DNA of 64,000 nucleotides from Escherichia coli (GCF_048403405.1 NZ_CP183129.1), one strand, 5' to 3'; numbered from the stretch's first letter, positions 17,070 to 56,408 are shown. The notes: generated from the letters alone by a model not told the origin. Made by a program: numbers and translations.

Positions 17070-17190
17070 TTTTGATCTTTCGTTTTCAATTTATCCACGG
17101 GAAGTGCTTGTGTTCGTTATGCGCACTCCAGTAGGAACCACGTCCGCTTTGCGCTAAGGTGTAAATAATCACCTTAAAAAGGACGAAATC

Positions 17191-34823: not shown

Positions 34824-37289
<2,466 letters not shown>

Positions 37290-37305
37290 GTTCGCAAAGT
37301 GGTAA

Positions 37306-37355
37306 CTGCCGTGTGTTCTCTTAAAGCTATCGTTAATGGGCACACGGCATTTTTA
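37306..37355 (+). terminator. Intrinsic terminator after glgP
   Basis: tgccgtgtg ... cacacggca hairpin followed by tttttat. Confidence 0.6.
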
Positions 37356-37773
37356 TATCAGATAAACGATATGTCATGACAATTTACAGACAGCATCGAT
37401 ATATAATTCATATTTATTAATTCTTAATAATATTTCTCATCTGAGTATGTATCATACAATAAGCATTATAAATAACTAATAAATTATTTATTATATTTAT
37501 ATATTGCCCCACTCTTCAGTTATCCTGTCTAAAATAAATCTCTTTGTTTTCAAATGACTGTATTTTTATATAAAGTCAATCATTGCGAGCATGGATTCTT
37601 TTAGTTATATTACCAAGCAGCTCATATAATATTTTCCAGCCATTCTATCTCTTATTTTTTTTCTGTGGTTAACTACACCAGCTTTATTCATTTAAATAAT
37701 GTGACTTGTTAAAGCTGAATGTAAAAATAATCGCCAATATTGCTTGGATTTTTTAACAAAAGGAAAGGTATAA

Positions 37774-38478
37774 ATGAAATTCAATCTATCTAATTTATCC
37801 GCAGTTTTACTCGCATCAGGTATGCTGATGTCAACTGCGGTAACCGCTGCGCCAGGCGATGCATCACAATTTGGTGGTGCGGATACAGACTGGAGCACCG
37901 TTGATTATCCAAAACTCACCGATATGGATAGCAACACCGATGCGATGGGCGGAAACATCCGCTTTACTGGTCGTGTGGTTAAAGCGACGTGTAAGGTTGC
38001 TACAGAATCGAAACAGATTGAAGTGGTACTGCCAGTCGTACCTTCTAACGCTTTCACGGGCATTGATACCGAAGCAACGGGTGCCAGTAACCAGACTGAC
38101 TTCAACATTAAATTGACTGATTGTAGCAATACGGACAGTCAAAATATTGAATTTCGTTTTACTGGCGTAGCAGACGGTGCCAACCAGACGCTTGCCAATG
38201 AAGTGGAAGGAGCTGCTGATGCTGATGGTACTGGCGAAGCGGGAGCTACGGGTGTAGGGATTCGTATTTATTCTAAAAACACGACAACTGATGGCCTGAT
38301 TAAGCTGAACACACAAACTCCCCAGGGGAGTAGTTCTTCAGCAGCCTACGTGATTCCTGGCGATGCAGCCACTCATGATTTTACTGCGGCATTTACCGCG
38401 GGCTATGCTCAGAACGGTAGTACCGTTGCACCAGGTCTGGTGAAATCAACGGCAAGTTTCGTCGTGCTGTACGAATAA
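37774..38478 (+). CDS. Fimbrial major subunit (chaperone-usher pilin, 234 aa)
   Basis: Signal peptide MKFNLSNLSAVLLASGMLMSTAVTAA; conserved Cys pair; C-terminal SFVVLYE resembles a pilin donor-strand-acceptor terminus; RBS aaggaaagg. Confidence 0.8.
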   Translation: MKFNLSNLSAVLLASGMLMSTAVTAAPGDASQFGGADTDWSTVDYPKLTDMDSNTDAMGGNIRFTGRVVKATCKVATESKQIEVVLPVVPSNAFTGIDTEATGASNQTDFNIKLTDCSNTDSQNIEFRFTGVADGANQTLANEVEGAADADGTGEAGATGVGIRIYSKNTTTDGLIKLNTQTPQGSSSSAAYVIPGDAATHDFTAAFTAGYAQNGSTVAPGLVKSTASFVVLYE

Positions 38479-38598
38479 TTACAGCAAGATAATTTCAGGT
38501 TACAGTTACTTGTAACCTGAAATTAATATTACATGTTTATTTGTAATAAATAGACATGCATCAGTAATTACAATTAATTTCATCTACAAGGATGCAGT

Positions 38599-39351
38599 AT
38601 GAGATGGATTTCAAAAAATAAATGTTTTTCGAATAGAAACATTAATTCTTTGCTGAAGACCCAATATATCATAAGGGCCGGTGCTCTATTTTTACTATCC
38701 GCCATATCTATCAATGCTATTGCTGCGGGTGGCTTCGGTCTTGGTTCTACGCGTCTGGTTTATCCATCTGACAGTCAGCAAATTACGCTAAGTGTACAGA
38801 ATGGTGGGGCTAACACCAGCTATTTAATCCAGTCATGGATTGATGACAATCAAAGCAGTAAAAAAAGTCAGGATTTTGTGGTTACGCCTCCTTTATTTAT
38901 GTTACCAACGCGAAAAGAAGCCTCATTGAGGATAATGTTTATTGGTAAATCACAGTTACCGACTGATCGCGAAACATTATTCTGGATGAATGTGAAAGCG
39001 ATTCCGCCAACGGATGAGAAGAATACCCAGAAAAACACGTTACAACTGGCGTTACAAAACAGAATTAAATTATTTTACCGTCCGACTAATTTACCCGTTC
39101 AAGCTGGTAAAGCACGGGATATGCTGCGATTTAAATACGAAGGTAAACAGCTAAGAGTCATTAACCCTTCTCCCTATTATCTGACGGTGACTGGAATCAG
39201 GGTGCAAGGGGCAAAATTACCCAATGCGTTTGTTCCACCGAAAAGTGACGTAACAGTGTCTTCACCAGTGATGCTAGCCGGTGAAATTACTTATCAAACT
39301 ATCAATGATTACGGTGCCACAACGGCCAGGCAAAAGGGAACGATGCAATAA
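38599..39351 (+). CDS. Periplasmic fimbrial chaperone (PapD-like)
   Basis: 250 aa; conserved chaperone segments LGSTRLVYPSDSQ and NRIKLFYRP. Confidence 0.85.
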   Translation: MRWISKNKCFSNRNINSLLKTQYIIRAGALFLLSAISINAIAAGGFGLGSTRLVYPSDSQQITLSVQNGGANTSYLIQSWIDDNQSSKKSQDFVVTPPLFMLPTRKEASLRIMFIGKSQLPTDRETLFWMNVKAIPPTDEKNTQKNTLQLALQNRIKLFYRPTNLPVQAGKARDMLRFKYEGKQLRVINPSPYYLTVTGIRVQGAKLPNAFVPPKSDVTVSSPVMLAGEITYQTINDYGATTARQKGTMQ

Positions 39352-39392
39352 ACCTGGAAGATTAAAACGTTAAAGCAACTCAGGTCAGGGAT

Positions 39393-41984
39393 ATGAACCT
39401 AAAGCTCAGAAAACTCGAACACAGGATGGCAAGGCAGAAGCAGATGAGGCGGTGTATGCTGCTTCTACTGACACTTTTGCCTGCGTGTTCAGTGGCGGGT
39501 ATGCGCTTTAACCCTGCATTCCTGTCGGGTGATACAGAAGCTGTTGCTGATTTATCTCGTTTTGAGAAAGGGATGACATATCTACCTGGTAGTTATGAGG
39601 TTGAAATATGGGTCAATGATTCGCCTTTGACATCACGTAAGGTTACTTTCAAAGCTGATGAGCAGAATCAGTTGATCCCCTGTTTTTCGCTCGATGAGTT
39701 AGTTACTTTAGGAATTAACAAAAGTGCATTGCCGGAACAGGCGCAAGCAGAGGGAAATAATTGTCTCGATTTACGTATATGGTTCGCAGAAGTTCAATAC
39801 ACTCCTGAACTGGATGCGCAACGACTCAAACTGACCTTTCCGCAGGCAATATTAAAGCATGAAGCCCGTGGTTATATTCCACCTGAGGAATGGGATAATG
39901 GTATCCCGGCCATTCTTATTAATTATGATTTTTCTGGCAACAGTGATCGTGGAGACTATGCGTCTGATAGTTATTATTTAAATCTCCGTTCAGGTTTAAA
40001 TTTAGGGGCGTGGCGTTTTCGTGATTATTCTACATGGAGTCGTTCAGGTAATTCACCGGGTAAAATTGCACATGTGAGTAGTACGTTACAACGAGTAATT
40101 ATTCCTTTTAAAAGTGAATTAACACTAGGTGATACCTGGTCTTCATCGGATGTTTTCGACAGTGTGAGTATTCGTGGTGCTAAACTTGAATCCGATGAAA
40201 ACATGCTACCCGATAGCCAAAGTGGTTTTGCCCCCACTGTGCGCGGTATTGCTAAAAGCAATGCTCAGGTAACGATCAAACAAAATGGCTATGTTATTTA
40301 TCAGACATATACTCCACCGGGACCCTTTGAAATCAACGATCTGAACCCTACGTCTTCCGCTGGGGATTTGGAAGTTACGATCAAAGAGTCTGATAATTCC
40401 GAAACTATCTATACCATTCCTTACGCCGCTGTTCCCATTCTTCAACGCGAAGGGCATATTAAATATTCGGCAACTGCCGGTAAATATCGTAGCAATAGCT
40501 ATAATCAAAACAGTCCGAATGTCTTTCAAGGAGATTTGATTTGGGGGTTACCCTGGGATATTACCGCCTACGGAGGGATGCAATACTCAAATAATTATCG
40601 GGCAATAGCACTCGGGCTTGGGTTCAACCTTGGTATGTTTGGTGCGACGTCATTTGATTTAACGCAAGCCAATAGCACGCTTGCCGATGGCAGTAAACAT
40701 CAAGGGCAATCGTACCGTTTCCTATATTCAAAATCGTTAGTGCAGACAGGTACGGCTTTTCAGATTATTGGTTATCGCTATTCGACGGAGGGATTTTATT
40801 CGTTGAGTGATACCACATACAAACAAATGTCGGGTACGGTTATCGATCCAGATACCCTTAATGAAAAAGACTATGTTTATAACTGGAATGATTTTTATAA
40901 TTTACGTTATAACAAAAGAGGAAAGTTTCAGGCAAATATATCGCAACCATTGGGCGAATATGGCTCTATGTATTTGGCGGCAAGTCAACAAACTTACTGG
41001 AATACGAATAATAAAGATACCTTGTATCAGGTCGGCTATAATACGAGTGTACATGGGATTTATTTAAATATTGCTTATAATTATAGTAAGTCACCAGGTT
41101 CAGATGCGGACAGAATCTTATCCGTAAATGTCTCATTGCCGATCAGCAATTGGTTATCACCAGCTGTCGATGGGCGTACTGCGACAAATTCTATGACAGC
41201 AACTTATGGTTATAGTCAGGATAATAGCGGTCATGTAAATCAGTATGCCGGAGTATCTGGATCGCTGCTGGAACAACATAATCTCAACTATAATATTCAA
41301 CAAAATTTTGCCAACCAGAATAATGGCGAAAATGGCTCGGTAGGGATAAATTACCGTGGTACATATGGTTCACTAAATTCTGGATACAGCTACGATAATA
41401 ATGGTAACCAGCAATTTAACTATGGTTTAAGTGGTGCCCTGGTTATTCACGAAAATGGTCTCACGTTAAGCCAGCCGTTAGGAGAAACAAATATACTGAT
41501 AAAAGCACCTGGGGCAAACAATGTAAATGTGGAACGCGGAACGGGGGTTAAAACAGACTGGCGTGGCTATGCTGTCGTACCTTATGCCACGGAATATCGG
41601 CGTAATAATATCTCTTTAGACCCTATGTCTATGAGTATGCATACAGAATTAGATGCTACTACTATGGAAGTGATACCCAGCAAAGGTGCTTTAGTTCGTG
41701 CTGAGTTTAATGCACATGTCGGTATTCGAGGTTTATTTAATGTTCATTATCGTAATAAACCAGTTCCATTTGGTGCGACGGTCAGTGTACCCACTGAGGG
41801 GACAACTCAGATTACAGGAATAGTGGGTGACAGTGGACAGGTTTATCTCTCCGGTTTGCCTTTACAAGGCATAATAAATATACAGTGGGGAGAAAGTTCT
41901 TATCAGCAATGTCGGGCAAACTATCAATTACCGGAAAGTGAGTTGGATAATGCCATTAGCTATGCAAATCTGGAGTGCCGCTAA
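39393..41984 (+). CDS. Outer membrane fimbrial usher protein
   Basis: 863 aa; N-terminal FNPAFL usher motif; beta-rich, size typical of ushers. The exact start within the first ~35 codons is uncertain. Confidence 0.88.
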   Translation: MNLKLRKLEHRMARQKQMRRCMLLLLTLLPACSVAGMRFNPAFLSGDTEAVADLSRFEKGMTYLPGSYEVEIWVNDSPLTSRKVTFKADEQNQLIPCFSLDELVTLGINKSALPEQAQAEGNNCLDLRIWFAEVQYTPELDAQRLKLTFPQAILKHEARGYIPPEEWDNGIPAILINYDFSGNSDRGDYASDSYYLNLRSGLNLGAWRFRDYSTWSRSGNSPGKIAHVSSTLQRVIIPFKSELTLGDTWSSSDVFDSVSIRGAKLESDENMLPDSQSGFAPTVRGIAKSNAQVTIKQNGYVIYQTYTPPGPFEINDLNPTSSAGDLEVTIKESDNSETIYTIPYAAVPILQREGHIKYSATAGKYRSNSYNQNSPNVFQGDLIWGLPWDITAYGGMQYSNNYRAIALGLGFNLGMFGATSFDLTQANSTLADGSKHQGQSYRFLYSKSLVQTGTAFQIIGYRYSTEGFYSLSDTTYKQMSGTVIDPDTLNEKDYVYNWNDFYNLRYNKRGKFQANISQPLGEYGSMYLAASQQTYWNTNNKDTLYQVGYNTSVHGIYLNIAYNYSKSPGSDADRILSVNVSLPISNWLSPAVDGRTATNSMTATYGYSQDNSGHVNQYAGVSGSLLEQHNLNYNIQQNFANQNNGENGSVGINYRGTYGSLNSGYSYDNNGNQQFNYGLSGALVIHENGLTLSQPLGETNILIKAPGANNVNVERGTGVKTDWRGYAVVPYATEYRRNNISLDPMSMSMHTELDATTMEVIPSKGALVRAEFNAHVGIRGLFNVHYRNKPVPFGATVSVPTEGTTQITGIVGDSGQVYLSGLPLQGIINIQWGESSYQQCRANYQLPESELDNAISYANLECR

Positions 41985-42547
41985 TGAATATATTACAAAA
42001 ATTTATTCTATTAATGTTTAGATCATTGTTCATGATGGTGATTTCATATAACGCACTGGCTAACGATACTGTAGTGGTCACATTTACAGGACAATTATTA
42101 GCGAAAACGTGTGATATTACAACTGGAAGTAAAGACCAGCCAGTAAACATGGGAACTTATGACGTCAATGATTTTTTGAATGTAGGGGATGTTTCTGGCA
42201 GCCATACATTTACGATCAATCTGGAAGGATGTCCTACAACAACCAGTACTGTTTATAGTTCAGGAGTAAGTGCTAATGTGCAGTTTACCGGGGATGCTGA
42301 TGCTATAAATACCACTTTATTACGCCTTACTTCCAGCGCGGATAGTGCAACTGGAGTGGGCATCGAAATTTTAGACAGTAATGATAAAATTATAGCAATT
42401 AATAGTGAATCAGGATTCAAAGAGTTAATTTTAAATAATAATGGCGATGCCAGTTTAACCTTTAAACTCCGCTATAAGTCAACTCAGCAAAACGTACATG
42501 CGGGACAGGCGAACGCACTATTGTACTTTGATATAGACTATCAGTGA
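41984..42547 (+). CDS. Fimbrial minor subunit
   Basis: ORF 41975..42547 begins at GTG; ATG at 41984 overlaps the usher stop and gives signal peptide MNILQKFILLMFRSLFMMVISYNALA; pilin-like Cys pair. Confidence 0.78.
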   Translation: MNILQKFILLMFRSLFMMVISYNALANDTVVVTFTGQLLAKTCDITTGSKDQPVNMGTYDVNDFLNVGDVSGSHTFTINLEGCPTTTSTVYSSGVSANVQFTGDADAINTTLLRLTSSADSATGVGIEILDSNDKIIAINSESGFKELILNNNGDASLTFKLRYKSTQQNVHAGQANALLYFDIDYQ

Positions 42548-42554
42548 GGTTAAT

Positions 42555-43079
42555 ATGACACGATATTGGAATTTAATTGCCCTATTATTCTCTGTGATAT
42601 CTATGTCATCCATTGCTGATGATACAACGCATGCAGGTGTTGTACGCATCGAAGGAATTATAACAGCAAAGACTTGTATTGTTGCCGATGAGTCTAAAAA
42701 TTTCACAGTTAACATGCCTGATGTTCCCAGTTATACGGTGAGAAATTCAGGGAGTGTTACTGAAAAAATTGGCTTCTCTTTAAAGTTAACCCGTTGTGGC
42801 AGTGATGTCAGTAATGCCAATGTCACGTTTGATGGAATACCAGTTAGTGAAGACGCAGCCCTATATAAACTGGAAGAGGGCTCAGTCGATGGGTTAGCAC
42901 TGGCTATTTTTGATAACAACAGACAAAGTATTAGTAATGGTATAAAGAGTACAAGTTATGCCCTTACACCATTGGTAGATAATACATTGCATTTCTTTGC
43001 TGCTTATAAAGCTATAAAAAATGATGTACAACCAGGAGATGCGAATGCATCAGTTTCCTTTATCGTCACTTATGATTAA
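42555..43079 (+). CDS. Fimbrial minor subunit
   Basis: 174 aa with signal peptide MTRYWNLIALLFSVISMSSIA; pilin-like C-terminus SFIVTYD. Confidence 0.78.
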   Translation: MTRYWNLIALLFSVISMSSIADDTTHAGVVRIEGIITAKTCIVADESKNFTVNMPDVPSYTVRNSGSVTEKIGFSLKLTRCGSDVSNANVTFDGIPVSEDAALYKLEEGSVDGLALAIFDNNRQSISNGIKSTSYALTPLVDNTLHFFAAYKAIKNDVQPGDANASVSFIVTYD

Positions 43080-43824
43080 CGTGCTGATATGCATTTTAAT
43101 ATGTTGCACAAATGCGCAGGCAGGAGTTGTTGTTGGCGGTACTCGTTTTGTTTACCCAGAAAAGCAGTCATCAATTTCGGTCGAGCTTAAAAATACTGCC
43201 AGTAAAGATATGCTGGTTAAAATTTCCGTGACACCTGATGATGGACGTCAGTTAAAAGGGACACTGGAATCCCAGCCTTTACTTCCAGATAAGGCGTTTA
43301 TTGCCACACCACCATTATTGGTACTTAAACAAGATAAAAATACCAAAATAAGAATCAATCGCGTGGGGGGGCAGTTACCTATAGATCGTGAGAGTTTATT
43401 TATACTGAATATTGCAGCGTTACCTGCTCAGGAACAAAACTCACAGCTTAAGAATGAAAATCAACTCCAGGTGGCTGTACGTAATAGGATGAAAATATTT
43501 TACCGCCCAGAGACGTTATCAGGTAATCCACTTGACGCTTATCAACAGTTACGCTGGTCGCGAAACAATGAAGCTGTCACCGTTTTTAACCCTACGCCCT
43601 GGTATGTGACACTCTATAATTTATCTATTGATGGTAAAAGCATAAATGGTGGCATGGTTGCACCATTTAGTCATCGCCAACAGGATTGGTGTCAGCGGCA
43701 AGGATATTGTGAGATTAACTGGCAAACACTAGATCTTTACAATAATGCCTTACCCGTATGGAGCGTAAAATTAAATGTTTTACAAAATAATGCTATTATG
43801 GGTGCAGTAGCGATACATGGATAA
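43045..43824 (+). CDS. Second periplasmic fimbrial chaperone (PapD-like)
   Basis: ORF 43021..43824; ATG at 43045 follows AGGAGA and gives MHQFPLSSLMINVLICILICCTNAQA; motifs GGTRFVYPEKQ and NRMKIFYRP. Confidence 0.82.
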   Translation: MHQFPLSSLMINVLICILICCTNAQAGVVVGGTRFVYPEKQSSISVELKNTASKDMLVKISVTPDDGRQLKGTLESQPLLPDKAFIATPPLLVLKQDKNTKIRINRVGGQLPIDRESLFILNIAALPAQEQNSQLKNENQLQVAVRNRMKIFYRPETLSGNPLDAYQQLRWSRNNEAVTVFNPTPWYVTLYNLSIDGKSINGGMVAPFSHRQQDWCQRQGYCEINWQTLDLYNNALPVWSVKLNVLQNNAIMGAVAIHG

Positions 43825-43834
43825 CTGGAGAAGC

Positions 43835-44968
43835 ATGATGCTTACTTATTTTTGGGGGAATATAAAAGCAATTTGTATATTGTTTGTTCTTTTAGTCAGT
43901 AGCTGCTATAACATAGTATATGCTGAAGATATGGGACGGGATCGCGCCTTTTGTTATCCTGGTGCACCAGGTAATAATACTACTCCTGCGACATTTTCTT
44001 ATAATTTTGGTACGGTAATTGTCTCAGATGTTAATAATAATTCGCCTGGGACAGTATTACCCTCGCAGGACTGGAAAATAGGGCATTATAAGGCTTATTG
44101 TAATTCTCTGGATGATTATGAGGTTTATTTTTCTGGTGTTTCTGGGATTGATCCGTCAGGAGCGTCTGGTGATCATCAGGGGAGCGATATATTTATTCCT
44201 TTGACTCATGAAATATCTGTCTCGACACATGTAAAGCTCTATAATAAAAATGGCACAATGACAGATAAGGCAGTACCTTTTGACAACTATAGCACCAATT
44301 ATCCAGCAGACAGAAGTAAACCATCAAGTTGGGCCTCAGGAACAGAAGGTTATATAAAAATCAGACTTGATAAAAAAATAATATCCGATATCTCAATAAA
44401 TAACGTATTGCTGGTTTCTTTGTATGTCAGCCAGTTTCCAACAGAGCACGGACCAATTCCAGTATTTAATGCTTATATTGGCAACTTAAATATTGAAGTT
44501 CCACAAGGTTGCACAATTAATGAGGGAACTAGTTTTACCGTTAATATGCCGGATGTCTGGGCCAGCGAATTAAGTCGGGCTGGTGCTGGAGTAAAACCAA
44601 CAGGTATTTCTCCAGTGGCAACCACTATTCCGATAAATTGTACGAACAAAGATATTGATGCCGTAATGACGCTGGTTTTCGATGGCAATATTTCATCAAC
44701 GAGAGATGTTAATGGTCGGCAAAGCATTATTCAGGCGGAGGATAACCCCGACGTTGGCATTATGATTATGGATAGCCAACAGGAATCCGTAGACTTAAAT
44801 GCATTGGCTGCGCATGTTGGTGTGCCATTTAAGTTAGTTGAAAACCAGGCTGAGTCAGCTCAGACGGCAGATGTGACTTTTCTGTCTCTCCCTGTAAGTA
44901 CCACAGGGCGACGCCCTGCTGCAGGCCGTTATAATGCCCTGGCTGTTTTGCGGGTGGAATACCAATGA
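43835..44968 (+). CDS. Putative fimbrial tip adhesin (two-domain pilin-like, about 377 aa)
   Basis: ORF 43817..44968; start likely MMLTYFWGNIKAICILFVLLVSS at 43835; size and terminal position fit a lectin-plus-pilin adhesin. Start uncertain by up to 6 codons. Confidence 0.7.
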   Translation: MMLTYFWGNIKAICILFVLLVSSCYNIVYAEDMGRDRAFCYPGAPGNNTTPATFSYNFGTVIVSDVNNNSPGTVLPSQDWKIGHYKAYCNSLDDYEVYFSGVSGIDPSGASGDHQGSDIFIPLTHEISVSTHVKLYNKNGTMTDKAVPFDNYSTNYPADRSKPSSWASGTEGYIKIRLDKKIISDISINNVLLVSLYVSQFPTEHGPIPVFNAYIGNLNIEVPQGCTINEGTSFTVNMPDVWASELSRAGAGVKPTGISPVATTIPINCTNKDIDAVMTLVFDGNISSTRDVNGRQSIIQAEDNPDVGIMIMDSQQESVDLNALAAHVGVPFKLVENQAESAQTADVTFLSLPVSTTGRRPAAGRYNALAVLRVEYQ

Positions 44969-45312
44969 TGTGTGAGTCAGTGCAGAATCGGATTAGCCCG
45001 TTTTTAGCCATCGGTAGGGTAAAGTTTGATGGAAAATATGGGTTATGTGCCGATGTATCCCACAATGAAATAACCCTCGAGGGAAAGGAATCAGCGCGAT
45101 GAACAAATTCACGGTGTTTTGCTGCTAGGTGTGGTATTTCTCGGCTTTATTATTGTACCGTTCTTGATATGGCCGACGGTGGTTGCGCTGGCTGCTTGTA
45201 TTATTACGCTGAGTTTTCTGGGGAGATACTGTTCTCTATCCCGCTCATGATCAGGCATATTTCACTTCTGGAATTACAACTTTGGTTATCGGTTGTATAT
45301 GCGCTTTGTCCA

Positions 45313-45419
45313 TGCCGGATGCGACGTGAACGTCTTATTGGCCTACAAAATCATGCAAATTCAATATATTGCATAAACCACGTAGGCCTGATAAGCGTAG
45401 CGCATCAGGCAGTTTTTTT
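45313..45419. repeat. REP/BIME element with trailing T-run (terminator-like on + strand)
   Basis: tgccggatgcgacgtgaacgtcttattggcctac ... gtaggcctgataagcgtagcgcatcaggc followed by agttttttt. Confidence 0.6.
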
Positions 45420-45474
45420 GTTTATCATCAGTCTCAGGTCAGATTGAAATCTGACCTGACCACCTTACGTTAAA

Positions 45475-46980
45475 TCACGAAGCCAGCGATAACCTCTGCT
45501 GCGTATACTCCACTAGCCACTGACTCACACGAGATTGTTGATCCGCATTCAGCCACATGCCTTGTTTTGTGCGACGCCACAGGGCATCGTCGGCACGGCG
45601 GACCCATTCGTGATCCACCAGGTATTTCAGTTCCGCTTCGTAGAACTCATGACCGAAATCCTCCCCGAGGTCGCTTATCGCCCCCGCATTGCCGAGCAGC
45701 AGTTCGCTGTTGCTGCCGTAGGTGCGCGCGTAGTGACGTGCCAGCGATTCGGTCAGGAATGGGTAACGGCGGCGCAGGCGAGCGGCATAATCGTCGCGGT
45801 CGCCTTCAATGGCACCACCCGGCAGCACGCTCTCTTTCGTCCACGCCGGGCCAATACCCTGATAATATGGCGTCAGTTTTTCCAGCGCATGTTCCGCCAG
45901 TTTGCGGTAGGTCGTCAGCTTACCGCCGAATACCGACAGCAGCGGCGCTTTGCCGTTTTCATCATGGATATCAAGCGTGTAATCACGAGTAATAGCCTGC
46001 GGCGAGTCGGACTCATCATCACATAGCGGACGCACGCCGGAGTAGGTCCAGACGATATCGTCCCGGCTTAACTGCTTTTTAAAGTGCGTGTTATACACTT
46101 TCAGCAGGTAATTGATTTCACTCTCTTCAATCTTCACGGCTTTCGGATCACCTTTGTATTCCACATCGGTGGTGCCGATGATGGAAAACTCGTCCATCCA
46201 CGGGATCACGAACACAATACGTTTATCTTCGTTTTGCAGAATGTAGGCTTGCTTCTGGGTATGTACGCGTGGCACTACAATATGGCTGCCTTTGATCAGG
46301 CGAATGCCATAAGGCGAAGGCAGATGCATCCCCTCGTCGAAGAACTGTTTCACCCACGGGCCGGTGGCGTTCACGAGGCCGCGCGCTTGCCAGCTATATT
46401 TTTTGCCGGTATCGATATCTTCCGCTTCCACAATCCACAGGCCGTTTTCGCGGCGAGCAGAAGTGGCACGAGTACGGGTAAGCACTTCACCGCCTTTACG
46501 CACCACCATCTGGGCGTTGGCGAGTACCAGACGGGCGTCGTCTACCCAACAGTCGGAATATTCGAATCCGCGCTTAATTTCCGGTTTTAATACTGAATTT
46601 GCGCCAAAACGCAAACCGGTTGATCCCGGTAGGCTGGTGCGTTTACCCAGATGATCGTACATAAACAGACCAATCCGAATCATCCACGCCGGGCGCAGAT
46701 GCGGACGATGCGGCAGGCGAAAACGCATCGGGAAGGCGATATGCGGGGCCATTTTCAGCAGCACTTCACGTTCAGCCAGCGCCTCGCTGACCAGGCGGAA
46801 TTCATAGTGCTCAAGGTAGCGTAGGCCACCGTGAATGAGTTTTGAACTGGCGGAGGAGGTCGCGCAAGCGAGATCCTGCGCCTCCAGCATCAGCACGGAT
46901 AAACCGCGTCCAGCGGCGTCTGCCGCGATACCAGCACCATTGATGCCGCCACCTATCACAATCAGATCTTTGGTTTCCAT
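45475..46980 (-). CDS. glpD: Aerobic glycerol-3-phosphate dehydrogenase GlpD (501 aa)
   Basis: ORF 45475..46995; native start taken at METKDLIVIGGGINGAGIAADAAGRGL (FAD-binding GxGxxG). Confidence 0.93.
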   Translation of the reverse strand: METKDLIVIGGGINGAGIAADAAGRGLSVLMLEAQDLACATSSASSKLIHGGLRYLEHYEFRLVSEALAEREVLLKMAPHIAFPMRFRLPHRPHLRPAWMIRIGLFMYDHLGKRTSLPGSTGLRFGANSVLKPEIKRGFEYSDCWVDDARLVLANAQMVVRKGGEVLTRTRATSARRENGLWIVEAEDIDTGKKYSWQARGLVNATGPWVKQFFDEGMHLPSPYGIRLIKGSHIVVPRVHTQKQAYILQNEDKRIVFVIPWMDEFSIIGTTDVEYKGDPKAVKIEESEINYLLKVYNTHFKKQLSRDDIVWTYSGVRPLCDDESDSPQAITRDYTLDIHDENGKAPLLSVFGGKLTTYRKLAEHALEKLTPYYQGIGPAWTKESVLPGGAIEGDRDDYAARLRRRYPFLTESLARHYARTYGSNSELLLGNAGAISDLGEDFGHEFYEAELKYLVDHEWVRRADDALWRRTKQGMWLNADQQSRVSQWLVEYTQQRLSLAS

Positions 46981-47013
46981 GCTGCCCTCATTCACTTTCG
47001 TTAAAGCTCATAA

Positions 47014-47031
47014 ATGTTCGTTATCGAACAT
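47014..47031. promoter_or_regulatory. GlpR operator-like perfect palindrome in the glpD-glpE divergent control region
   Basis: atgttcgttatcgaacat (ATGTTCG-TTAT-CGAACAT), matching the glp operator half-site TGTTCGA. Confidence 0.6.
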
Positions 47032-47091
47032 ATTAGCAAAGAATCGCGCTTTAGGTAACATTGAAAAAACATTTTAGAGTGATATGTATAA

Positions 47092-47496
<405 letters not shown>

Positions 47497-47528
47497 CGCT
47501 TTATACTGTCCCCTTTTGTGTGGAATAA

Positions 47529-48371
<843 letters not shown>

Positions 48372-48387
48372 TTCCAGGGATTTATAA

Positions 48388-49146
48388 ATGAAACAAACAC
48401 AACGTCACAACGGTATTATCGAACTGGTTAAACAGCAGGGTTATGTCAGTACCGAGGAACTGGTGGAGCACTTCTCCGTCAGCCCGCAGACTATTCGTCG
48501 CGACCTCAACGAGCTGGCAGAGCAAAACCTGATCCTGCGGCATCATGGCGGCGCGGCGCTGCCTTCCAGTTCGGTTAACACGCCGTGGCACGATCGTAAA
48601 GCCACCCAGACCGAAGAAAAAGAGCGCATCGCCCGCAAAGTGGCGGAGCAAATCCCCAACGGCTCGACGCTGTTTATCGATATCGGCACCACCCCGGAAG
48701 CGGTGGCGCACGCGCTGCTTAATCACAGCAATTTGCGCATTGTCACCAACAATCTCAACGTCGCTAACACGTTGATGGTAAAAGAAGATTTTCGCATTAT
48801 TCTCGCCGGTGGCGAATTACGTAGCCGCGATGGTGGGATCATAGGCGAAGCGACGCTCGATTTTATCTCCCAGTTCCGCCTTGATTTCGGCATTCTGGGG
48901 ATTAGTGGCATCGATAGCGACGGCTCGCTGCTGGAGTTCGATTACCACGAAGTTCGCACCAAACGCGCCATTATTGAGAACTCGCGCCACGTTATGCTGG
49001 TTGTCGATCACTCGAAATTTGGCCGTAACGCGATGGTCAATATGGGCAGTATCAGCATGGTAGATGCCGTCTACACCGACGCCCCGCCGCCAGTAAGCGT
49101 CATGCAGGTGCTGACGGACCATCATATTCAACTGGAGCTGTGCTGA
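48388..49146 (+). CDS. glpR: Glycerol-3-phosphate regulon repressor GlpR (DeoR family)
   Basis: 252 aa; N-terminal HTH VSTEELVEHFSVSPQTIRRDLNEL. Confidence 0.92.
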   Translation: MKQTQRHNGIIELVKQQGYVSTEELVEHFSVSPQTIRRDLNELAEQNLILRHHGGAALPSSSVNTPWHDRKATQTEEKERIARKVAEQIPNGSTLFIDIGTTPEAVAHALLNHSNLRIVTNNLNVANTLMVKEDFRIILAGGELRSRDGGIIGEATLDFISQFRLDFGILGISGIDSDGSLLEFDYHEVRTKRAIIENSRHVMLVVDHSKFGRNAMVNMGSISMVDAVYTDAPPPVSVMQVLTDHHIQLELC

Positions 49147-50726
49147 TCCTGCACGGCTTCCCACGTCAGACCAAAACGCGCCAGGTATTTGCGTAGCCGA
49201 TCTGCGTCGTTGACGCTGGCTTTGCCCTGGCGCGAAACATCAAAAAGCTGGCGACCGGCAGCAGAAAGCGATTTTGCCTGGCGGCAGATAGCGATAACGT
49301 GTTCCAGTTGCAGCCGATCAAAGAGGTCGATGTTTTCTGCCTCAGCGCCCAGCAGTTGCGTAAGCGCGGAGGGACGGCTCTCCTGCCAGTTATAGCGCAG
49401 ACGATTTATCTCATCTTCTACGGTTTCCAGAGTAATGCGCCCGCTATCGGCAAAGGTTGCCATCCGCGTGACGCTGGCAGAAAGTTCGCGAAAGTTACCG
49501 CGCCATGTTGCCTGGGGAGATGTCGCAAAAGCCAGCCAGGCGCGCCGTGCTTCGGTGTTAAAACGCACGCTGTCGCCGGTGAGTGAGGCGTGGCGCTCCA
49601 CTTCATAATCCAGGTTAGGTTCAATATCTTCCTGGCGCTGGCGCAGTCCCGGCAGGGTGAAGGTCCAGAGATTGATCCGCGCGTACAGATCTTCGCGAAA
49701 TTTGCCTTCAGCAACCAGCTGGCGCAAATCGCGCACCGTTCCGGCGATCAGCTGAAAATCACTGCTCACCTGGCGATCGCTGCCAAATGGGTAAAAGGTT
49801 TTCTCTTCAATGGCTTTCAGCAACATCGCCTGTTCGTCTGCGCCCAGTTCGCCAATCTCATCAAGAAACAACATGCCACCGTTGGCGCTGCGTAATAATC
49901 CTTCACGAGATTCCCGCGCCCCGGTAAACGCGCCTTTCACATGACCAAACAGCGTCGACATGGCGGTATCGCCGCGCAGGGTGGCGCAGTTCACTTCTAC
50001 AAATGCGCCGCTAAACTGATGCCGCGCCTGTTTCAATTCAAAGATGCGTCGTGCCAGAAATGACTTGCCCGCCCCGGTCGGGCCGTTGAGCAGGATCGGT
50101 GCGCGGGATTTAATCGCCACTTTTTCGATCTGCTCAATCATGCGGTTGAAGTGGGGGTTACGCGTGGCAATGCCGGATTTGAGGAAATCGAGGGTTTGCT
50201 GGCGTTCCTCGGCAAAGCGGCTGGCGATGGCGTTATAACGGCTTAAATCGAGATCGATAATCGTCACTTCACCTGCGCCGCGCGGTTGTTCTTTTTTGCG
50301 CGGTGGTGAAGATTGTATCAACCGGGCGGGTAGATAACGCGCTTCTGCCAGCAGAAACCAGCAAATCTGCGCGACGTGGGTACCGGTGGTGATGTGAATT
50401 AAATAGTCTTCTTTTTCTGGCTGGAACGCGTAACCACGGGCGAAATCATGCAGGCAGGCGTAAACCTCTTCGAAATCCCACGGGTTATGCAGTTCTATCT
50501 CAACGCCCACCACTTCTGTTTCTGGCGAAACGCTGGCGATATCGCGTTTAAGCGTTTCGAATAGCGAGCGCGAGCGGGCGTCGTGCAATAATTCCAGCCG
50601 ATCGATAACTAACGATTCTTGCTGGCATAGACAGAGTGTCGGACGCCATTTTGACCAGCGCTGACTGCCGCGCCCGGCATAATCCAGCACGGTACCGACA
50701 AAGCCAAAAGCCACTGTTTTACGCAT
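49128..50726 (-). CDS. rtcR: Sigma-54-dependent transcriptional activator RtcR
   Basis: 532 aa; AAA+ sigma-54 interaction domain (LLNGPTGAGKS; GAFTGA); 3' end overlaps the glpR 3' end. Confidence 0.9.
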   Translation of the reverse strand: MRKTVAFGFVGTVLDYAGRGSQRWSKWRPTLCLCQQESLVIDRLELLHDARSRSLFETLKRDIASVSPETEVVGVEIELHNPWDFEEVYACLHDFARGYAFQPEKEDYLIHITTGTHVAQICWFLLAEARYLPARLIQSSPPRKKEQPRGAGEVTIIDLDLSRYNAIASRFAEERQQTLDFLKSGIATRNPHFNRMIEQIEKVAIKSRAPILLNGPTGAGKSFLARRIFELKQARHQFSGAFVEVNCATLRGDTAMSTLFGHVKGAFTGARESREGLLRSANGGMLFLDEIGELGADEQAMLLKAIEEKTFYPFGSDRQVSSDFQLIAGTVRDLRQLVAEGKFREDLYARINLWTFTLPGLRQRQEDIEPNLDYEVERHASLTGDSVRFNTEARRAWLAFATSPQATWRGNFRELSASVTRMATFADSGRITLETVEDEINRLRYNWQESRPSALTQLLGAEAENIDLFDRLQLEHVIAICRQAKSLSAAGRQLFDVSRQGKASVNDADRLRKYLARFGLTWEAVQDQHSSS

Positions 50727-50852
50727 CTTAGATATCCTTATAAAAGACGATATTTCATTATCGGTAAATCGGCTTTGCGGGAAATCTCCGTTTACGGACG
50801 TAAAGATTTAATCTTTTTAGAAACAATAAATTAATCTGCTTATTTAATTTTC

Positions 50853-50868
50853 TGGCACGACGGTTGCA
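50853..50868 (+). promoter_or_regulatory. Sigma-54 (-24/-12) promoter of rtcBA
   Basis: TGGCAC-gacgg-TTGCA matches the sigma-54 consensus TGGCAC-N5-TTGCW; about 37 bp upstream of the rtcB start, divergent from rtcR. Confidence 0.8.
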
Positions 50869-50904
50869 ATTATCAGGACATACCAACGAAAAGAGAAAAA
50901 CAAA

Positions 50905-52131
50905 ATGAATTACGAATTACTGACCACTGAAAATGCCCCGGTAAAAATGTGGACCAAAGGCGTGCCGGTAGAAGCCGATGCGCGTCAGCAACTTATTAAT
51001 ACGGCGAAGATGCCGTTTATTTTCAAACATATTGCGGTAATGCCTGATGTACACCTGGGTAAAGGTTCCACCATTGGTAGCGTGATCCCGACCAAAGGGG
51101 CGATTATTCCGGCGGCGGTGGGCGTGGATATCGGTTGTGGAATGAACGCGCTGCGCACCGCGTTAACGGCGGCTGACCTGCCTGAAAACCTGGCAGAACT
51201 GCGTCAGGCGATTGAAACTGCCGTGCCGCACGGGCGTACTACCGGACGTTGTAAACGTGATAAAGGCGCATGGGAAAATCCGCCTGTTAACGTCGATGCG
51301 AAATGGGCTGAGCTGGAAGCCGGTTATCAGTGGTTAACGCAAAAATATCCCCGTTTCCTTAACACTAACAACTATAAACACCTGGGAACGCTGGGAACGG
51401 GTAACCACTTTATTGAAATCTGCCTTGATGAATCGGACCAGGTGTGGATTATGCTGCACTCCGGTTCACGCGGAATCGGTAATGCCATCGGAACTTACTT
51501 TATCGATCTGGCGCAAAAAGAGATGCAGGAAACGCTTGAAACATTGCCGTCGCGTGATCTGGCGTACTTTATGGAAGGTACGGAATACTTTGATGATTAC
51601 CTGAAAGCCGTGGCCTGGGCGCAGCTTTTTGCCAGCCTTAACCGCGATGCGATGATGGAAAACGTGGTAACGGCGTTGCAGAGCATTACGCAGAAAACGG
51701 TCAGACAGCCACAAACGCTGGCGATGGAAGAGATCAACTGTCACCACAACTATGTGCAAAAAGAACAGCACTTTGGTGAAGAGATCTACGTGACGCGTAA
51801 AGGCGCGGTGTCTGCGCGTGCTGGTCAATATGGAATTATTCCCGGTTCGATGGGGGCGAAGAGCTTTATCGTCCGTGGGCTGGGAAATGAAGAGTCGTTC
51901 TGTTCGTGCAGCCACGGTGCCGGGCGGGTTATGAGCCGTACCAAAGCGAAAAAACTGTTCAGCGTGGAAGATCAAATTCGTGCCACCGCGCATGTGGAAT
52001 GCCGTAAAGATGCCGAAGTGATCGACGAAATCCCGATGGCGTATAAAGATATTGATGCGGTGATGGCGGCACAAAGCGATCTGGTGGAAGTTATCTACAC
52101 CCTGCGTCAGGTGGTGTGCGTAAAAGGATAA
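50905..52131 (+). CDS. rtcB: RNA-splicing ligase RtcB
   Basis: 408 aa; MNYELLTTENAPVKMWTKGVPVEADARQQL; His-rich metal site NCHHNY. Confidence 0.93.
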   Translation: MNYELLTTENAPVKMWTKGVPVEADARQQLINTAKMPFIFKHIAVMPDVHLGKGSTIGSVIPTKGAIIPAAVGVDIGCGMNALRTALTAADLPENLAELRQAIETAVPHGRTTGRCKRDKGAWENPPVNVDAKWAELEAGYQWLTQKYPRFLNTNNYKHLGTLGTGNHFIEICLDESDQVWIMLHSGSRGIGNAIGTYFIDLAQKEMQETLETLPSRDLAYFMEGTEYFDDYLKAVAWAQLFASLNRDAMMENVVTALQSITQKTVRQPQTLAMEEINCHHNYVQKEQHFGEEIYVTRKGAVSARAGQYGIIPGSMGAKSFIVRGLGNEESFCSCSHGAGRVMSRTKAKKLFSVEDQIRATAHVECRKDAEVIDEIPMAYKDIDAVMAAQSDLVEVIYTLRQVVCVKG

Positions 52132-53151
<1,020 letters not shown>

Positions 53152-53163
53152 TATAAAGATGTA

Positions 53164-53189
53164 AGCCGGATCCGACGTATTATCCGGCT
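53164..53189. terminator. Hairpin between convergent rtcA and malT
   Basis: gccggat-ccgacgtattat-atccggc inverted repeat. Confidence 0.45.
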
Positions 53190-53193
53190 AAAC

Positions 53194-55905
<2,712 letters not shown>

Positions 55906-56408
55906 TCACTTCACTGTGGAAAATGAGGAAATATTATTTTTTTTGCGCTTCGTAATTAATGGTTATAAGGTCGGCCAGAAACCTTTCTAATGCAAGCGAT
56001 GACGTTTTTTTATGTGTCTGAATTTGCACTCTGTCACAATTCCAAATATTTATTAATGACTCACCTAAAACGACGCTGATACAGCGTGAATGCTGGGTTG
56101 TACGGTATTTCCCTTATGTTCATCAGATTCATTTAAGCAAGGGTTTCTTTTTCATTCCTGATGAAAGTGCTATCTAAAAAGATGATCTTAATAAATCTAT
56201 TAAGAATGAGATGGAGCACACTGGATATTTTACTTATGAAACTGTTTCACTCCTTTACTTAATTTATAGAGTTACCTTCCGCTTTTTGAAAATACGCAAC
56301 GGCCATTTTTTGCACTTAGATACAGATTTTCTGCGCTGTATGGCATTGATTTGCTGCTAATCCTGTGGTTTGCACTAGCTTTAAGTGGTCGAGATCACAT
56401 TTCCTTGC

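What the first reader, a model, noticed from the sequence alone, without database searches (positions are those of the whole stretch)
37290..44968. Accessory seven-gene chaperone-usher fimbrial operon with two chaperones, inserted between glgP and glpD
After the glgP terminator there is a ~480-bp extremely AT-rich region (typical of H-NS-silenced horizontally acquired promoters), then major subunit, chaperone, usher, two minor subunits, a second chaperone and a putative tip adhesin, all on the + strand and low in GC. As I recall, K-12 has only a short gap here. The second chaperone placed just before the adhesin suggests a dedicated adhesin or minor-subunit chaperone. I cannot assign the operon to a named fimbrial type from sequence alone.
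Basis: partly seen in the sequence, partly recalled or inferred. Interest (0 to 1): 0.55.

Follow-up and report, generated by a model that had tools for sequence, protein, structure and literature searches.

The report
Auf fimbrial operon, 042-type allele
The seven genes between glgP and glpD are an intact copy of the already-named but poorly understood Auf chaperone-usher fimbrial operon of E. coli, in the divergent form carried by strain 042 and about 4% of complete genomes, so this is an ordinary accessory adhesin locus and not a new system.

Summary
Window 37774-44968 (+) holds seven intact genes: major pilin, chaperone, usher, two minor pilins, a second chaperone and a two-domain adhesin. 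A 484-bp leader of 28% GC precedes them, between glgP and glpD. K-12 has only 615 bp with yzgL at this site.

The operon can be named. It is aufABCDEFG (Auf fimbriae, first described in UPEC CFT073), which occupies this same site in B2 strains. The window carries a divergent allele, about 75% nt and 67-84% aa identical to the Nissle/B2 allele. The same allele occurs in phylogroup-D strain 042, whose operon Wurpel et al. 2013 already list as Auf. Among 5426 complete E. coli genomes, 228 carry this allele, 558 carry B2-type alleles, and the rest carry a PstS-like gene or its yzgL remnant.

The two alleles are saturated at synonymous sites (dS 1.4-2.5, against 0.11 in glgP). dN/dS is 0.06-0.13, so both are ancient and under purifying selection.

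The second chaperone pairs with YcbF of the Elf operon. It travels with the two minor-pilin genes, not with the adhesin gene.

H-NS silencing and the receptor remain untested.

Verdict: already known, low interest, with some modest side observations.

The parts
37307..37355 (+). glgP intrinsic terminator-like hairpin followed by a U-run. It lies inside the island-specific sequence; K-12 has a different terminator here.
   Evidence: inverted repeat I4; fold -20.6 kcal/mol, z -2.8; K-12 homology ends at 37293
37290..37773 (+). AT-rich (28% GC) leader and regulatory region of the operon. Only the promoter-proximal ~200 bp align with the B2 allele. It has no GATC sites and no fimS-like inverted repeats.
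   Evidence: megablast matches to B2 alleles start at query position 280 (window 37569)
37583..37630 (+). Candidate sigma-70 promoter elements: TTGCGA-17-TATATT at 37583-37611 and a perfect TATAAT at 37625-37630. Both are largely conserved in the Nissle allele. These are consensus matches only, and no transcription start site is known.
37742..37773 (+). 5' UTR and ribosome-binding block (GCTTGGATTTTTTAACAAAAGGAAAGGTATAA). It is almost invariant in three lineages whose coding DNA is only about 70-75% identical.
37774..38478 (+). aufA, major pilin (234 aa). Predicted signal peptide 1-25 (read from the sequence by eye), then about 28 extra acidic residues before the donor-strand motif GGNIRFTGRVV. 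Fimbrial domain at 62-233.
   Evidence: 84% aa to Nissle AufA; identical protein WP_000671312.1 in strain 042
38490..38558 (+). Two intercistronic hairpins just after the aufA stop codon: a 16-bp stem at 38490-38525 and a 12-bp stem at 38532-38558. The first is conserved in three lineages with compensatory changes. Inferred role: attenuator or mRNA-stability element that sets a high AufA-to-machinery ratio.
   Evidence: z -5.4; 13 pairs, 2 compensatory, 0 broken
38599..39351 (+). aufB, primary periplasmic chaperone (250 aa), of FimC/BcfB/ElfD type. It keeps the conserved Arg (GSTRLVYP) and Lys (NRIKLFYRP) motifs.
   Evidence: (78% to Nissle AufB, 44% to ElfD)
39393..41984 (+). aufC, outer-membrane usher (863 aa), with PapC_N, Usher pore and PapC_C domains.
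   Evidence: 81% to Nissle AufC, 50% to ElfC; NF011740, 1078 bits against a cut-off of 995
41984..42547 (+). aufD, minor pilin (187 aa; the longest ORF starts at 41975). Its start overlaps the aufC stop. Nearest NCBIfam model is FimF; the Elf counterpart is YcbU.
42555..43079 (+). aufE, minor pilin (174 aa). Nearest NCBIfam model is FimF; the Elf counterpart is YcbV.
43045..43824 (+). aufF, second periplasmic chaperone (259 aa; the longest ORF starts at 43021). It overlaps aufE by 35 nt. It has PapD_N and PapD_C domains and keeps the Arg (GGTRFVYP) and Lys (NRMKIFYRP) motifs. It is the counterpart of YcbF.
   Evidence: 39% to YcbF, against 31-32% to ElfD/AufB; identical WP_001306326.1 in 042
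43838..44968 (+). aufG, two-domain tip adhesin (376 aa; the longest ORF starts at 43817). N-terminal receptor-binding domain about 30-216, C-terminal pilin domain 217-376.
   Evidence: LpfD 5afo, E 9e-18; pLDDT 89; Foldseek top hit LpfD, E 1e-21; then CupB6, FimH, F17-G
45107..45321 (+). Frameshifted remnant of the third of three hypothetical genes. In B2 strains these genes lie between aufG and glpD, and at least the first two are also present (the second truncated by IS1) in the one non-auf strain examined.
   Evidence: (77% over 177 bp to Nissle L002 13057-13231)

Best explanation
This is the Auf chaperone-usher fimbrial operon (aufABCDEFG) at its usual chromosomal site between glgP and glpD. 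The window carries the divergent '042-type' allele instead of the CFT073/Nissle (B2) allele.

Shown here:
- All seven genes are intact.
- Their products carry the domains of a gamma-1 type chaperone-usher pathway. These are a pilin, a PapD-like chaperone, a PapC/FimD-like usher, two FimF-like minor pilins, a second PapD-like chaperone and a two-domain LpfD/FimH-like adhesin.
- The operon has been under strong purifying selection.

Inferred from the established chaperone-usher mechanism (Fim and Pap):
- Subunits cross the inner membrane via Sec.
- AufB and/or AufF cap each subunit's incomplete Ig fold by donor-strand complementation.
- The usher AufC first recruits the adhesin AufG, which ends up at the tip.
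- AufD and AufE act as adaptors, and many AufA copies are then polymerised by donor-strand exchange.
- The conserved hairpin after aufA probably keeps AufA in excess over the assembly machinery.
- The AT-rich leader is a likely target of nucleoid-protein silencing. In CFT073 the only known positive input is the PapB-family protein TosR (PMC5956150).

Second chaperone: AufF belongs to a separate YcbF-like chaperone lineage that is syntenic with the two minor-pilin genes. I therefore think it more likely serves the minor or adaptor subunits than the adhesin alone.

Origin: the two alleles are far older than the E. coli core genome. They most likely exchange by homologous recombination through the conserved flanks.
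For: Location and identity:
- Both the window allele and the B2 allele sit between glgP and glpD.
- BEN2908's glpD..glgP region is named as the auf operon in PMC12928451.
- Wurpel 2013 Table S2 lists EC042_3692, ECUMN_3889 and EFER_3402 as Auf.
- Strain 042 encodes AufA and AufF proteins identical to the window's.

Protein identities: 67-84% to Nissle Auf, against 25-50% to K-12 Elf.

Domains and structure:
- The AufG model has pLDDT 89, and its best PDB match is LpfD.

Selection and divergence:
- dS is 1.4-2.5 and dN/dS 0.06-0.13 for all seven genes, against glgP dS 0.11.
- Identity drops from 97-99% to 60-75% exactly at the glgP stop codon.

Distribution: 228 genomes carry the window allele, 558 carry B2-type alleles, and 4670 match the K-12 yzgL/PstS-like junction sequence.

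Regulatory features:
- The post-aufA hairpin is conserved with compensatory changes.
- The conserved 5' UTR block is shown.

Chaperone pairing and gene order: AufB pairs with ElfD and AufF with YcbF. The minor-minor-chaperone2 block is conserved in Elf and in Franconibacter locus L016, where the adhesin-like gene follows the usher.
Against: - No expression, piliation or binding data exist for this allele.
- Even for the CFT073 allele, an auf mutant had no defect in murine UTI, and no receptor is known (PMC5956150).
- Some carriers have disrupted copies: aufB is frameshifted in 042, IS5 interrupts the usher in EC6868, and ETEC6333 has a partial copy. The operon is therefore dispensable in some lineages.
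- H-NS control rests only on base composition.
- The promoter sites are consensus matches, no more frequent than in shuffled sequence.
- The role assigned to AufF rests on synteny and on a few lineages.
- The phylogroup of most carriers was not determined. Only 042 is known to be D. GN02461 is chuA-positive.
Confidence: 0.9

Rival explanations
1. The operon is a cryptic, decaying relic that makes no fimbriae in this strain. The seven open frames survive only by chance or because the operon arrived recently.
For: Disrupted copies occur in other carriers (aufB frameshift in 042; IS5 in the usher of EC6868 and a partial copy in ETEC6333). Auf is poorly expressed in vitro, and the auf mutant shows no phenotype in murine UTI (PMC5956150). 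The AT-rich leader is compatible with permanent silencing.
Against: All seven genes are intact here. dN/dS is 0.06-0.13 across alleles that are saturated at synonymous sites, which shows long-term purifying selection on every gene. The catalytic and anchoring motifs of both chaperones are kept. The regulatory hairpin and the 5' UTR are conserved.
Confidence: 0.12
2. It is a recent horizontal insertion into a previously empty glgP-glpD gap, and not an old resident allele of a variable locus.
For: GC is 41% against 52% in the flanks, and the composition and identity boundary falls sharply at the glgP stop. The operon is absent from K-12 and present in only 14% of genomes.
Against: - No integrase, tRNA, IS or flanking direct repeats were found at the borders.
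- The same site holds Auf alleles in both B2 and D strains. E. fergusonii also has an Auf operon, but its site was not checked here.
- The alleles differ by dS > 1.4 while the flanks differ by 0.11.
- The 'empty' state is itself derived. Most strains have a PstS-like gene plus hypothetical genes at this site. K-12's yzgL appears to be a remnant of that gene, and the window keeps a remnant of a downstream gene.
Confidence: 0.2
3. The second chaperone AufF is a dedicated chaperone for the adhesin AufG, as its position just upstream of aufG suggests.
For: aufF lies immediately before aufG, with a 13-nt gap. AufG is an unusually large two-domain subunit. AufF keeps the functional chaperone motifs.
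Against: In Elf and in Franconibacter locus L016, the AufF counterpart follows the two minor-pilin genes at the 3' end, while the adhesin-like gene sits directly after the usher. The conserved neighbours of this chaperone lineage are therefore the minor pilins. AufF and AufE are the two fastest-evolving products (67% and 71% identity), whereas AufG is among the slowest (82%).
Confidence: 0.25
4. The operon belongs to the Elf/Ycb (laminin-binding) fimbrial type and not to Auf.
For: The usher exceeds the curated cut-off of NCBIfam NF011740, the model on which ElfC scores 1757 bits. Wurpel 2013 call Auf and Ycb closely related.
Against: - Identity to ElfC is 50%, against 81% to Nissle AufC.
- The locus differs: elf lies between ssuE and pyrD.
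- The gene order differs.
- ElfA and ElfG are only 25-31% identical to AufA and AufG.
Confidence: 0.02

Closest known systems
Auf fimbriae of UPEC CFT073 / Nissle 1917 (aufABCDEFG, c4207-c4214; Buckles et al. 2004, cited from memory; PMC5956150; PMC3559732)
   Same: Same chromosomal site (glgP-glpD), same seven genes in the same order, and every product 67-84% identical. Also shared are the elongated AufA N-terminus, the post-aufA hairpin and the 5' UTR block.
   Different: About 25% nucleotide divergence, with saturated synonymous sites. The distal 280 bp of the leader cannot be aligned. B2 strains keep three hypothetical genes between aufG and glpD, of which the window has only a remnant. 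The known regulator TosR is encoded by the tos operon of UPEC strains such as CFT073, and I did not check whether this strain has it.
Auf operon of EAEC 042 (EC042_3692 region; listed as Auf in Wurpel et al. 2013, Table S2)
   Same: The same allele. AufA and AufF proteins are identical, the other genes are close variants, and the same remnant gene lies next to glpD. Overall identity over window 38312-56000 is 98.5%.
   Different: In 042 aufB is frameshifted, whereas the window copy is intact.
Elf/Ycb fimbriae of E. coli K-12 (elfADCG-ycbUVF)
   Same: Nearest paralogous operon, with usher 50%, primary chaperone 44% and second chaperone 39% identical. Both have two chaperones and a minor-minor-chaperone2 block. 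The usher passes the same NCBIfam equivalog model.
   Different: - Different locus (ssuE-pyrD).
- The adhesin-like gene follows the usher instead of ending the operon.
- The major subunit is normal-sized (179 aa).
- elfC is present in 4035 of 5426 genomes, against 786 for auf.
- Wurpel 2013 report the two as mutually exclusive.
Long polar fimbriae adhesin LpfD (PDB 5AFO) and type 1 fimbriae FimH/FimC/FimD
   Same: AufG has the same two-domain adhesin architecture. LpfD is the best match by both sequence and fold, and FimH, CupB6 and F17-G follow. The pilins, chaperones and usher match Fim-family models.
   Different: AufG is only 22% identical to LpfD and 12-15% to FimH in the structural alignments. 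Its N-terminal domain has no Pfam match. Its receptor is unknown. The Fim and Lpf operons have a single chaperone (from memory).

Membership tests
Chaperone-usher fimbrial operon (classical, gamma-1 type) | Outer-membrane usher with an N-terminal domain, a pore/plug domain and a C-terminal domain | tested here: met
   Pfam PapC_N 39-181, Usher 195-772, PapC_C 783-848. Full-length NCBIfam usher equivalog above its cut-off.
Chaperone-usher fimbrial operon (classical, gamma-1 type) | PapD-like periplasmic chaperone with the conserved Arg and Lys that anchor the subunit C-terminus | tested here: met
   Both chaperones match FimC/BcfB/YcbF-type models. AufF has PapD_N and PapD_C. The motifs STRLVYP/RIKLFYRP (AufB) and GTRFVYP/RMKIFYRP (AufF) are read directly from the translations. 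Their equivalence to PapD R8/K112 is from memory.
Chaperone-usher fimbrial operon (classical, gamma-1 type) | Pilin subunits with the Fimbrial (PF00419) fold and an N-terminal donor strand | tested here: met
   AufA has a Fimbrial domain at 62-233. AufD and AufE give full-length hits to FimF/FimA/FimI models. The donor-strand motif GGNIRFTGRVV precedes the domain.
Chaperone-usher fimbrial operon (classical, gamma-1 type) | Two-domain tip adhesin (receptor-binding domain plus pilin domain) | tested here: met
   The AlphaFold2 model has pLDDT 89 and two beta domains. Foldseek gives LpfD E 1.4e-21 over 350 columns, followed by CupB6, FimH and F17-G lectin domains. Pfam Fimbrial covers 217-376 only.
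Chaperone-usher fimbrial operon (classical, gamma-1 type) | Assembly of a surface filament | not testable with these tools
   Needs electron microscopy or immunodetection.
Auf fimbrial type (Wurpel 2013: usher phylogeny plus locus position) | Locus position between glpD and glgP | tested here: met
   PMC12928451 names the glpD..glgP region as the auf operon.
Auf fimbrial type (Wurpel 2013: usher phylogeny plus locus position) | Usher groups with Auf ushers and not with other types | tested here: met
   81% identity to Nissle AufC, against 50% to ElfC and 43-54% to the best ushers of other genera. The same allele in 042 is listed as Auf in Table S2. No formal tree was built.
Auf fimbrial type (Wurpel 2013: usher phylogeny plus locus position) | Gene order aufA-B-C-D-E-F-G with two chaperones and a terminal adhesin | tested here: met
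   One-to-one best hits to the Nissle genes, in order. The order is also kept in metagenomic relatives L037 and L038.
Auf fimbrial type (Wurpel 2013: usher phylogeny plus locus position) | Regulation as described for CFT073 (up-regulation by TosR) | not tested
   The window does not include a tos locus. The promoter-proximal 200 bp are about 76% conserved with the B2 allele.
Elf/Ycb fimbrial type | Locus ssuE-pyrD and gene order elfA-D-C-G-ycbU-V-F | tested here: not met
   Different locus and different gene order. Only the usher HMM threshold is passed.
Phase-variable fimbrial operons (fimS invertible switch, or pap-type Dam/Lrp switch) | Inverted repeats flanking a promoter segment of about 300 bp plus a recombinase, or paired GATC sites upstream | tested here: not met
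   There are no GATC sites in 37290-37773. The only inverted repeats are short and AT-rich or belong to the glgP terminator. No recombinase gene is adjacent.

The most novel reading that the evidence does not exclude
Auf may be an old, functionally maintained adhesin system whose two chaperones divide the labour. On this reading the YcbF-like AufF serves the adaptor/minor subunits and AufB serves the rod and adhesin. The receptor-binding head would then be diversified by allele replacement and domain shuffling. On that view the 042-type operon is a separate receptor or antigenic variant that surveys based on the CFT073 sequence have missed. This could explain why Auf is reported as almost exclusive to B2.
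Probability: 0.3. Interest if true: 0.4.

Novelty: already known. Interest (0 to 1): 0.2.

Why it matters
The finding matters little as a discovery. The operon type has been named since 2004, and this allele was already catalogued as Auf in strains 042 and UMN026. Identical sequences sit in more than 200 RefSeq genomes.

The practical point is that the 042-type allele is only about 75% identical in DNA to the CFT073 reference. PCR or BLAST screens that use the B2 sequence may therefore score its carriers as auf-negative. That could bias the reported link between Auf and B2/UPEC strains.

The deep divergence combined with strong purifying selection argues that Auf does something useful, even though no phenotype has been found. 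The conserved minor-minor-chaperone2 module also gives a concrete, testable hypothesis for why this fimbrial subgroup keeps two chaperones.

Tried and rejected
- **Usher scan of species-representative genomes.** It returned only paralogous ushers of 43-54% identity in Citrobacter, Salmonella, Klebsiella, Franconibacter and others. The exact peptide patterns missed other Escherichia species, so I could not confirm the allele or site of the E. fergusonii Auf operon listed by Wurpel.
- **Records not available.** UMN026 (NC_011751.1) is not in the genome collection. Buckles et al. 2004 (PMC427398) is not held.
- **Literature search by locus tag** (EC042_369x, ECUMN_388x/389x) found nothing. I therefore have no published expression or H-NS data for this allele.
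- **Phase-variation switch.** I looked for one and rejected it: there are no GATC sites, no fimS-like repeats and no recombinase gene.
- **Terminator after aufG.** The fold is no better than shuffled sequence.
- **Rfam.** No RNA family lies inside the operon. Only RyhB and an ES036 match lie elsewhere in the window.
- **Minus-strand ORFs** inside the operon (37864-38316, 40206-40529, 44473-44727) have no support and overlap the fimbrial genes. I treated them as spurious.
- **Promoter scan.** Hits are no more frequent than in shuffled sequence, so I report them only as candidates.
- **K-12 gap sequence.** It shows no homology to the auf island beyond the shared edges. I therefore dropped the idea that yzgL is an auf scar. 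It appears instead to be a remnant of the PstS-like gene found at this site in most strains.

Full report
**1. The observation**

A complete E. coli genome, GN02461 (NZ_CP095533.1, a blood isolate), matches the query 37290-44968 at 100%. Its PGAP annotation gives seven intact genes there:

| Gene | Window coordinates | Annotated product |
|---|---|---|
| 1 | 37774-38478 | fimbrial protein |
| 2 | 38599-39351 | chaperone |
| 3 | 39393-41984 | usher |
| 4 | 41984-42547 | fimbrial protein |
| 5 | 42555-43079 | fimbrial protein |
| 6 | 43045-43824 | chaperone |
| 7 | 43838-44968 | fimbrial protein |

- glgP ends at 37289, and glpD is at 45475-46995 on the minus strand.
- The 484-bp leader is 28% GC, the operon 41% and the rest of the window 52%.
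- A hairpin followed by a U-run right after glgP (37307-37355) folds at -20.6 kcal/mol, z -2.8.
- K-12 has only 615 bp between glgP and glpD, containing yzgL. K-12 homology to the window stops at 37293 and resumes at 45300.

**2. What the genes encode**

- NCBIfam and Pfam place every product in the classical chaperone-usher pathway.
- The usher has PapC_N, Usher and PapC_C domains. It scores 1078 bits on NF011740, whose cut-off is 995.
- Both chaperones match PapD-like models. Both keep the conserved Arg and Lys motifs, read directly from the translations. Their equivalence to PapD R8/K112 is from memory.
- AufA, AufD and AufE carry the Fimbrial domain.
- The last gene has a Fimbrial pilin domain only in residues 217-376.
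- I built an AlphaFold2 model of that last protein on a 62-sequence alignment. It has pLDDT 89 and two beta-rich domains.
- The model's best solved match is the two-domain adhesin LpfD (5AFO, E 1.4e-21 over 350 columns). CupB6, FimH and F17-G lectin domains follow.
- A sequence search of the PDB also finds only LpfD.

**3. Naming the operon**

- Megablast against 5426 complete E. coli genomes finds the region in 786 of them, always on the chromosome. In 228 the identity is at least 95% (211 at 99% or more). In 558 it is about 75%, and these include Nissle 1917 and ATCC 25922.
- In Nissle the 75% version lies at the same site, glgP to glpD.
- The BEN2908 genome paper names the glpD..glgP region as the auf operon, with AufA as major subunit, AufD/E as minor subunits, AufB/F as chaperones, AufC as usher and AufG as adhesin (PMC12928451).
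- Wurpel et al. 2013 (PMC3559732) define fimbrial types by usher phylogeny plus locus position. Their Table S2 lists Auf in most of their B2 strains (8 of 11), in phylogroup-D strains UMN026 and 042, and in E. fergusonii.
- I fetched the 042 locus. It has the same layout, the same downstream remnant gene, and AufA and AufF proteins identical to the window's (WP_000671312.1 and WP_001306326.1). Its aufB is frameshifted.
- The window's products are 84, 78, 81, 81, 71, 67 and 82% identical to Nissle AufA-G. They are only 25-50% identical to the K-12 Elf/Ycb proteins.

The window therefore holds the Auf operon in the allele I-type, and published work already files that allele under Auf. GN02461 is chuA-positive. 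That excludes phylogroups A, B1 and C and fits a D-like background.

**4. The locus is a variable site, not a simple insertion**

- A query spanning K-12's glgP-yzgL junction matches 4670 genomes. Only 1261 cover at least 80% of it, that is, the K-12-like yzgL state.
- In the rows listed for the remainder, a full-length PstS-family gene lies under the match. In the one example I fetched it is followed by a YbbD-family gene and a further gene that IS1 truncates.
- In B2 strains three hypothetical genes (236, 255 and 201 aa) lie between aufG and glpD. The window keeps only a frameshifted remnant of the third, at 45107-45321.
- Auf therefore occupies the position of the PstS-like gene. K-12's short gap is itself a deletion product.
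- I saw no integrase, tRNA or IS at the borders, and no direct repeats in the left-border region I scanned.

**5. Age of the alleles and selection on them**

- Identity to the Nissle allele falls from 97-99% inside glgP to 60-75% exactly at the glgP stop codon. It stays there through aufG.
- A Nei-Gojobori calculation gives dS of 1.4-2.5 (saturated) and dN/dS of 0.06-0.13 for all seven genes. glgP has dS 0.11.
- The two alleles are thus far older than the divergence of the surrounding core genome, and each gene has been under purifying selection. This argues against a decaying relic.
- It also suggests that whole alleles are exchanged by homologous recombination through the flanks. That last step is inference.

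**6. Further lineages**

- The 5.8-billion-protein search with AufG returns only ten proteins. The full-length ones are 68-99% identical to the window's AufG; the other two are a fragment and a distant 23% hit.
- At the 50%-cluster level the family has a single full-length representative. The next relatives are about 30% identical.
- P0003 and P0004 share 98-99% of the pilin domain with B2 AufG but only 74-76% of the receptor-binding domain. The adhesin head is therefore shuffled independently of the rest.
- This probably explains the megablast hits that stop at query position 6480, near the end of aufF. I did not check the AufG sequences of those genomes.
- Metagenomic contigs L037 and L038 carry a third lineage, about 69% nt identical, with the same seven-gene order. 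L037 has two tandem aufG paralogues.

**7. Regulatory features**

- The leader has no GATC sites, no fimS-like repeats and no adjacent recombinase. I find no sign of the two classical phase switches.
- Only the promoter-proximal ~200 bp align between alleles. They contain a TTGCGA-17-TATATT match and a perfect TATAAT. Such matches are no more frequent than in shuffled sequence, so they are only candidates.
- The ~30 nt before the aufA start codon are almost invariant in three lineages.
- Directly after aufA there is a perfect 16-bp hairpin, and a second one follows it (z -5.4). The first is kept in the Nissle allele and in the third lineage. Two pairs there change in a compensatory way and none is broken.
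- By analogy with fim and pap (from memory), I infer that this hairpin attenuates read-through or stabilises the aufA message.
- H-NS silencing is plausible from composition alone. The only regulator reported for auf is TosR in CFT073, which raises auf mRNA by 2.6-6.6 log2-fold. The same paper reports no fitness defect for an auf mutant in murine UTI (PMC5956150).

**8. The second chaperone**

- AufB pairs with ElfD (44%) and AufF with YcbF (39%). The cross-comparisons are 29-33%. NCBIfam agrees. The chaperone duplication therefore predates the split between Auf and Elf.
- In Elf and in a Franconibacter operon (L016) the order is usher, adhesin-like gene, minor pilin, minor pilin, second chaperone.
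- In single-chaperone relatives from Citrobacter and Salmonella the adhesin-like gene also follows the usher.
- Only Auf places the adhesin gene last. The conserved module is minor-minor-chaperone2.
- Adjacency of aufF to aufG is therefore a derived feature of Auf and weak evidence for an adhesin-specific chaperone.
- I consider a role with the minor or adaptor subunits somewhat more likely, but nothing here tests it.

**9. Comparison, novelty and verdict**

- The operon meets every defining feature of the Auf type that can be tested here: locus, usher affinity and gene order. It fails the Elf criteria of locus and order.
- It is a known, named operon, and this allele has been catalogued before. 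The specific points that may be under-appreciated are:
  - the depth of the allelic split;
  - the mosaic adhesin head;
  - the conserved hairpin and 5' UTR;
  - the likelihood that screens based on the CFT073 sequence miss the 042-type allele. Auf is reported as 'nearly exclusive' to B2 in PMC8767327.
- At population scale elfC is in 4035 genomes and auf in 786 of 5426. This is compatible with, but does not prove, the mutual exclusivity stated by Wurpel et al..
- Verdict: interest 0.2; novelty: already known.

Noticed in passing
window 22416-25714 (+): Two overlapping genes lie between yhgN and gntU: a RecQ-family helicase (698 aa, also a weak DpdF-like hit) and a DprA-like protein (431 aa). 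I do not recall them at this position in K-12. They may be a small accessory or defence-like pair.
   Followed up: partly
window 38490-38558: Strong hairpins lie immediately after the aufA stop codon. The first (16 bp) is conserved in three Auf lineages with compensatory base changes, and is probably a stoichiometry-setting attenuator or stabiliser.
   Followed up: yes
window 37742-37773: The ~30 nt upstream of the aufA start codon are almost invariant across three lineages whose coding DNA is 70-75% identical. This suggests a conserved translational or regulatory element.
   Followed up: partly
window 37849-37938 (AufA residues 26-55): Mature AufA carries about 28 extra, acidic residues between the predicted signal-peptide cleavage site and the donor-strand motif, making it 234 aa against roughly 180 for typical pilins. 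The segment is conserved in the B2 allele, and family models start matching only at residues 50-59.
   Followed up: partly
proteins P0002-P0004 (AufG variants), aligned to window 43838-44968: AufG is mosaic. Variants P0003 and P0004 share 98-99% of the pilin domain with B2 AufG but only 74-76% of the N-terminal receptor-binding domain. This probably explains the E. coli genomes whose megablast match stops near the end of aufF.
   Followed up: partly
L037 6869-9184; L038: Metagenomic (Logan) contigs carry a third Auf-like lineage, about 69% nt identical, with the same gene order. L037 has two tandem aufG paralogues. Both contigs begin and end in the same hairpin-containing repeat and not in glgP/glpD, so the host and site are unknown.
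   Followed up: partly
window 44969-45474; L002 11544-13632; L042 3143-5616: The glgP-glpD gap is a multi-state variable site:
- a PstS-family gene plus a YbbD-family gene and a further (truncated) hypothetical gene in the non-auf example fetched (L042);
- auf plus three hypothetical genes in B2;
- auf plus a remnant in the window;
- only yzgL in K-12.
yzgL appears to be the 5' remnant of the PstS-like gene.
   Followed up: partly
window 45347-45389 (+): An Rfam ES036 (CssrF) sRNA match (43.6 bits, gathering score 37.6) lies in the REP-like sequence just downstream of glpD.
   Followed up: no
window 17009-17073 (+): A RyhB sRNA gene (83 bits) lies at its usual place between yhhX and yhhY.
   Followed up: no
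window ~14955-16133 (record NZ_CP095533.1 4974297-4975966): An Hcp1-family 'tssD' gene (yhhZ-like, 392 aa) is followed by yrhA and fragments. This is an orphan Hcp-toxin-like module, as annotated by PGAP.
   Followed up: no
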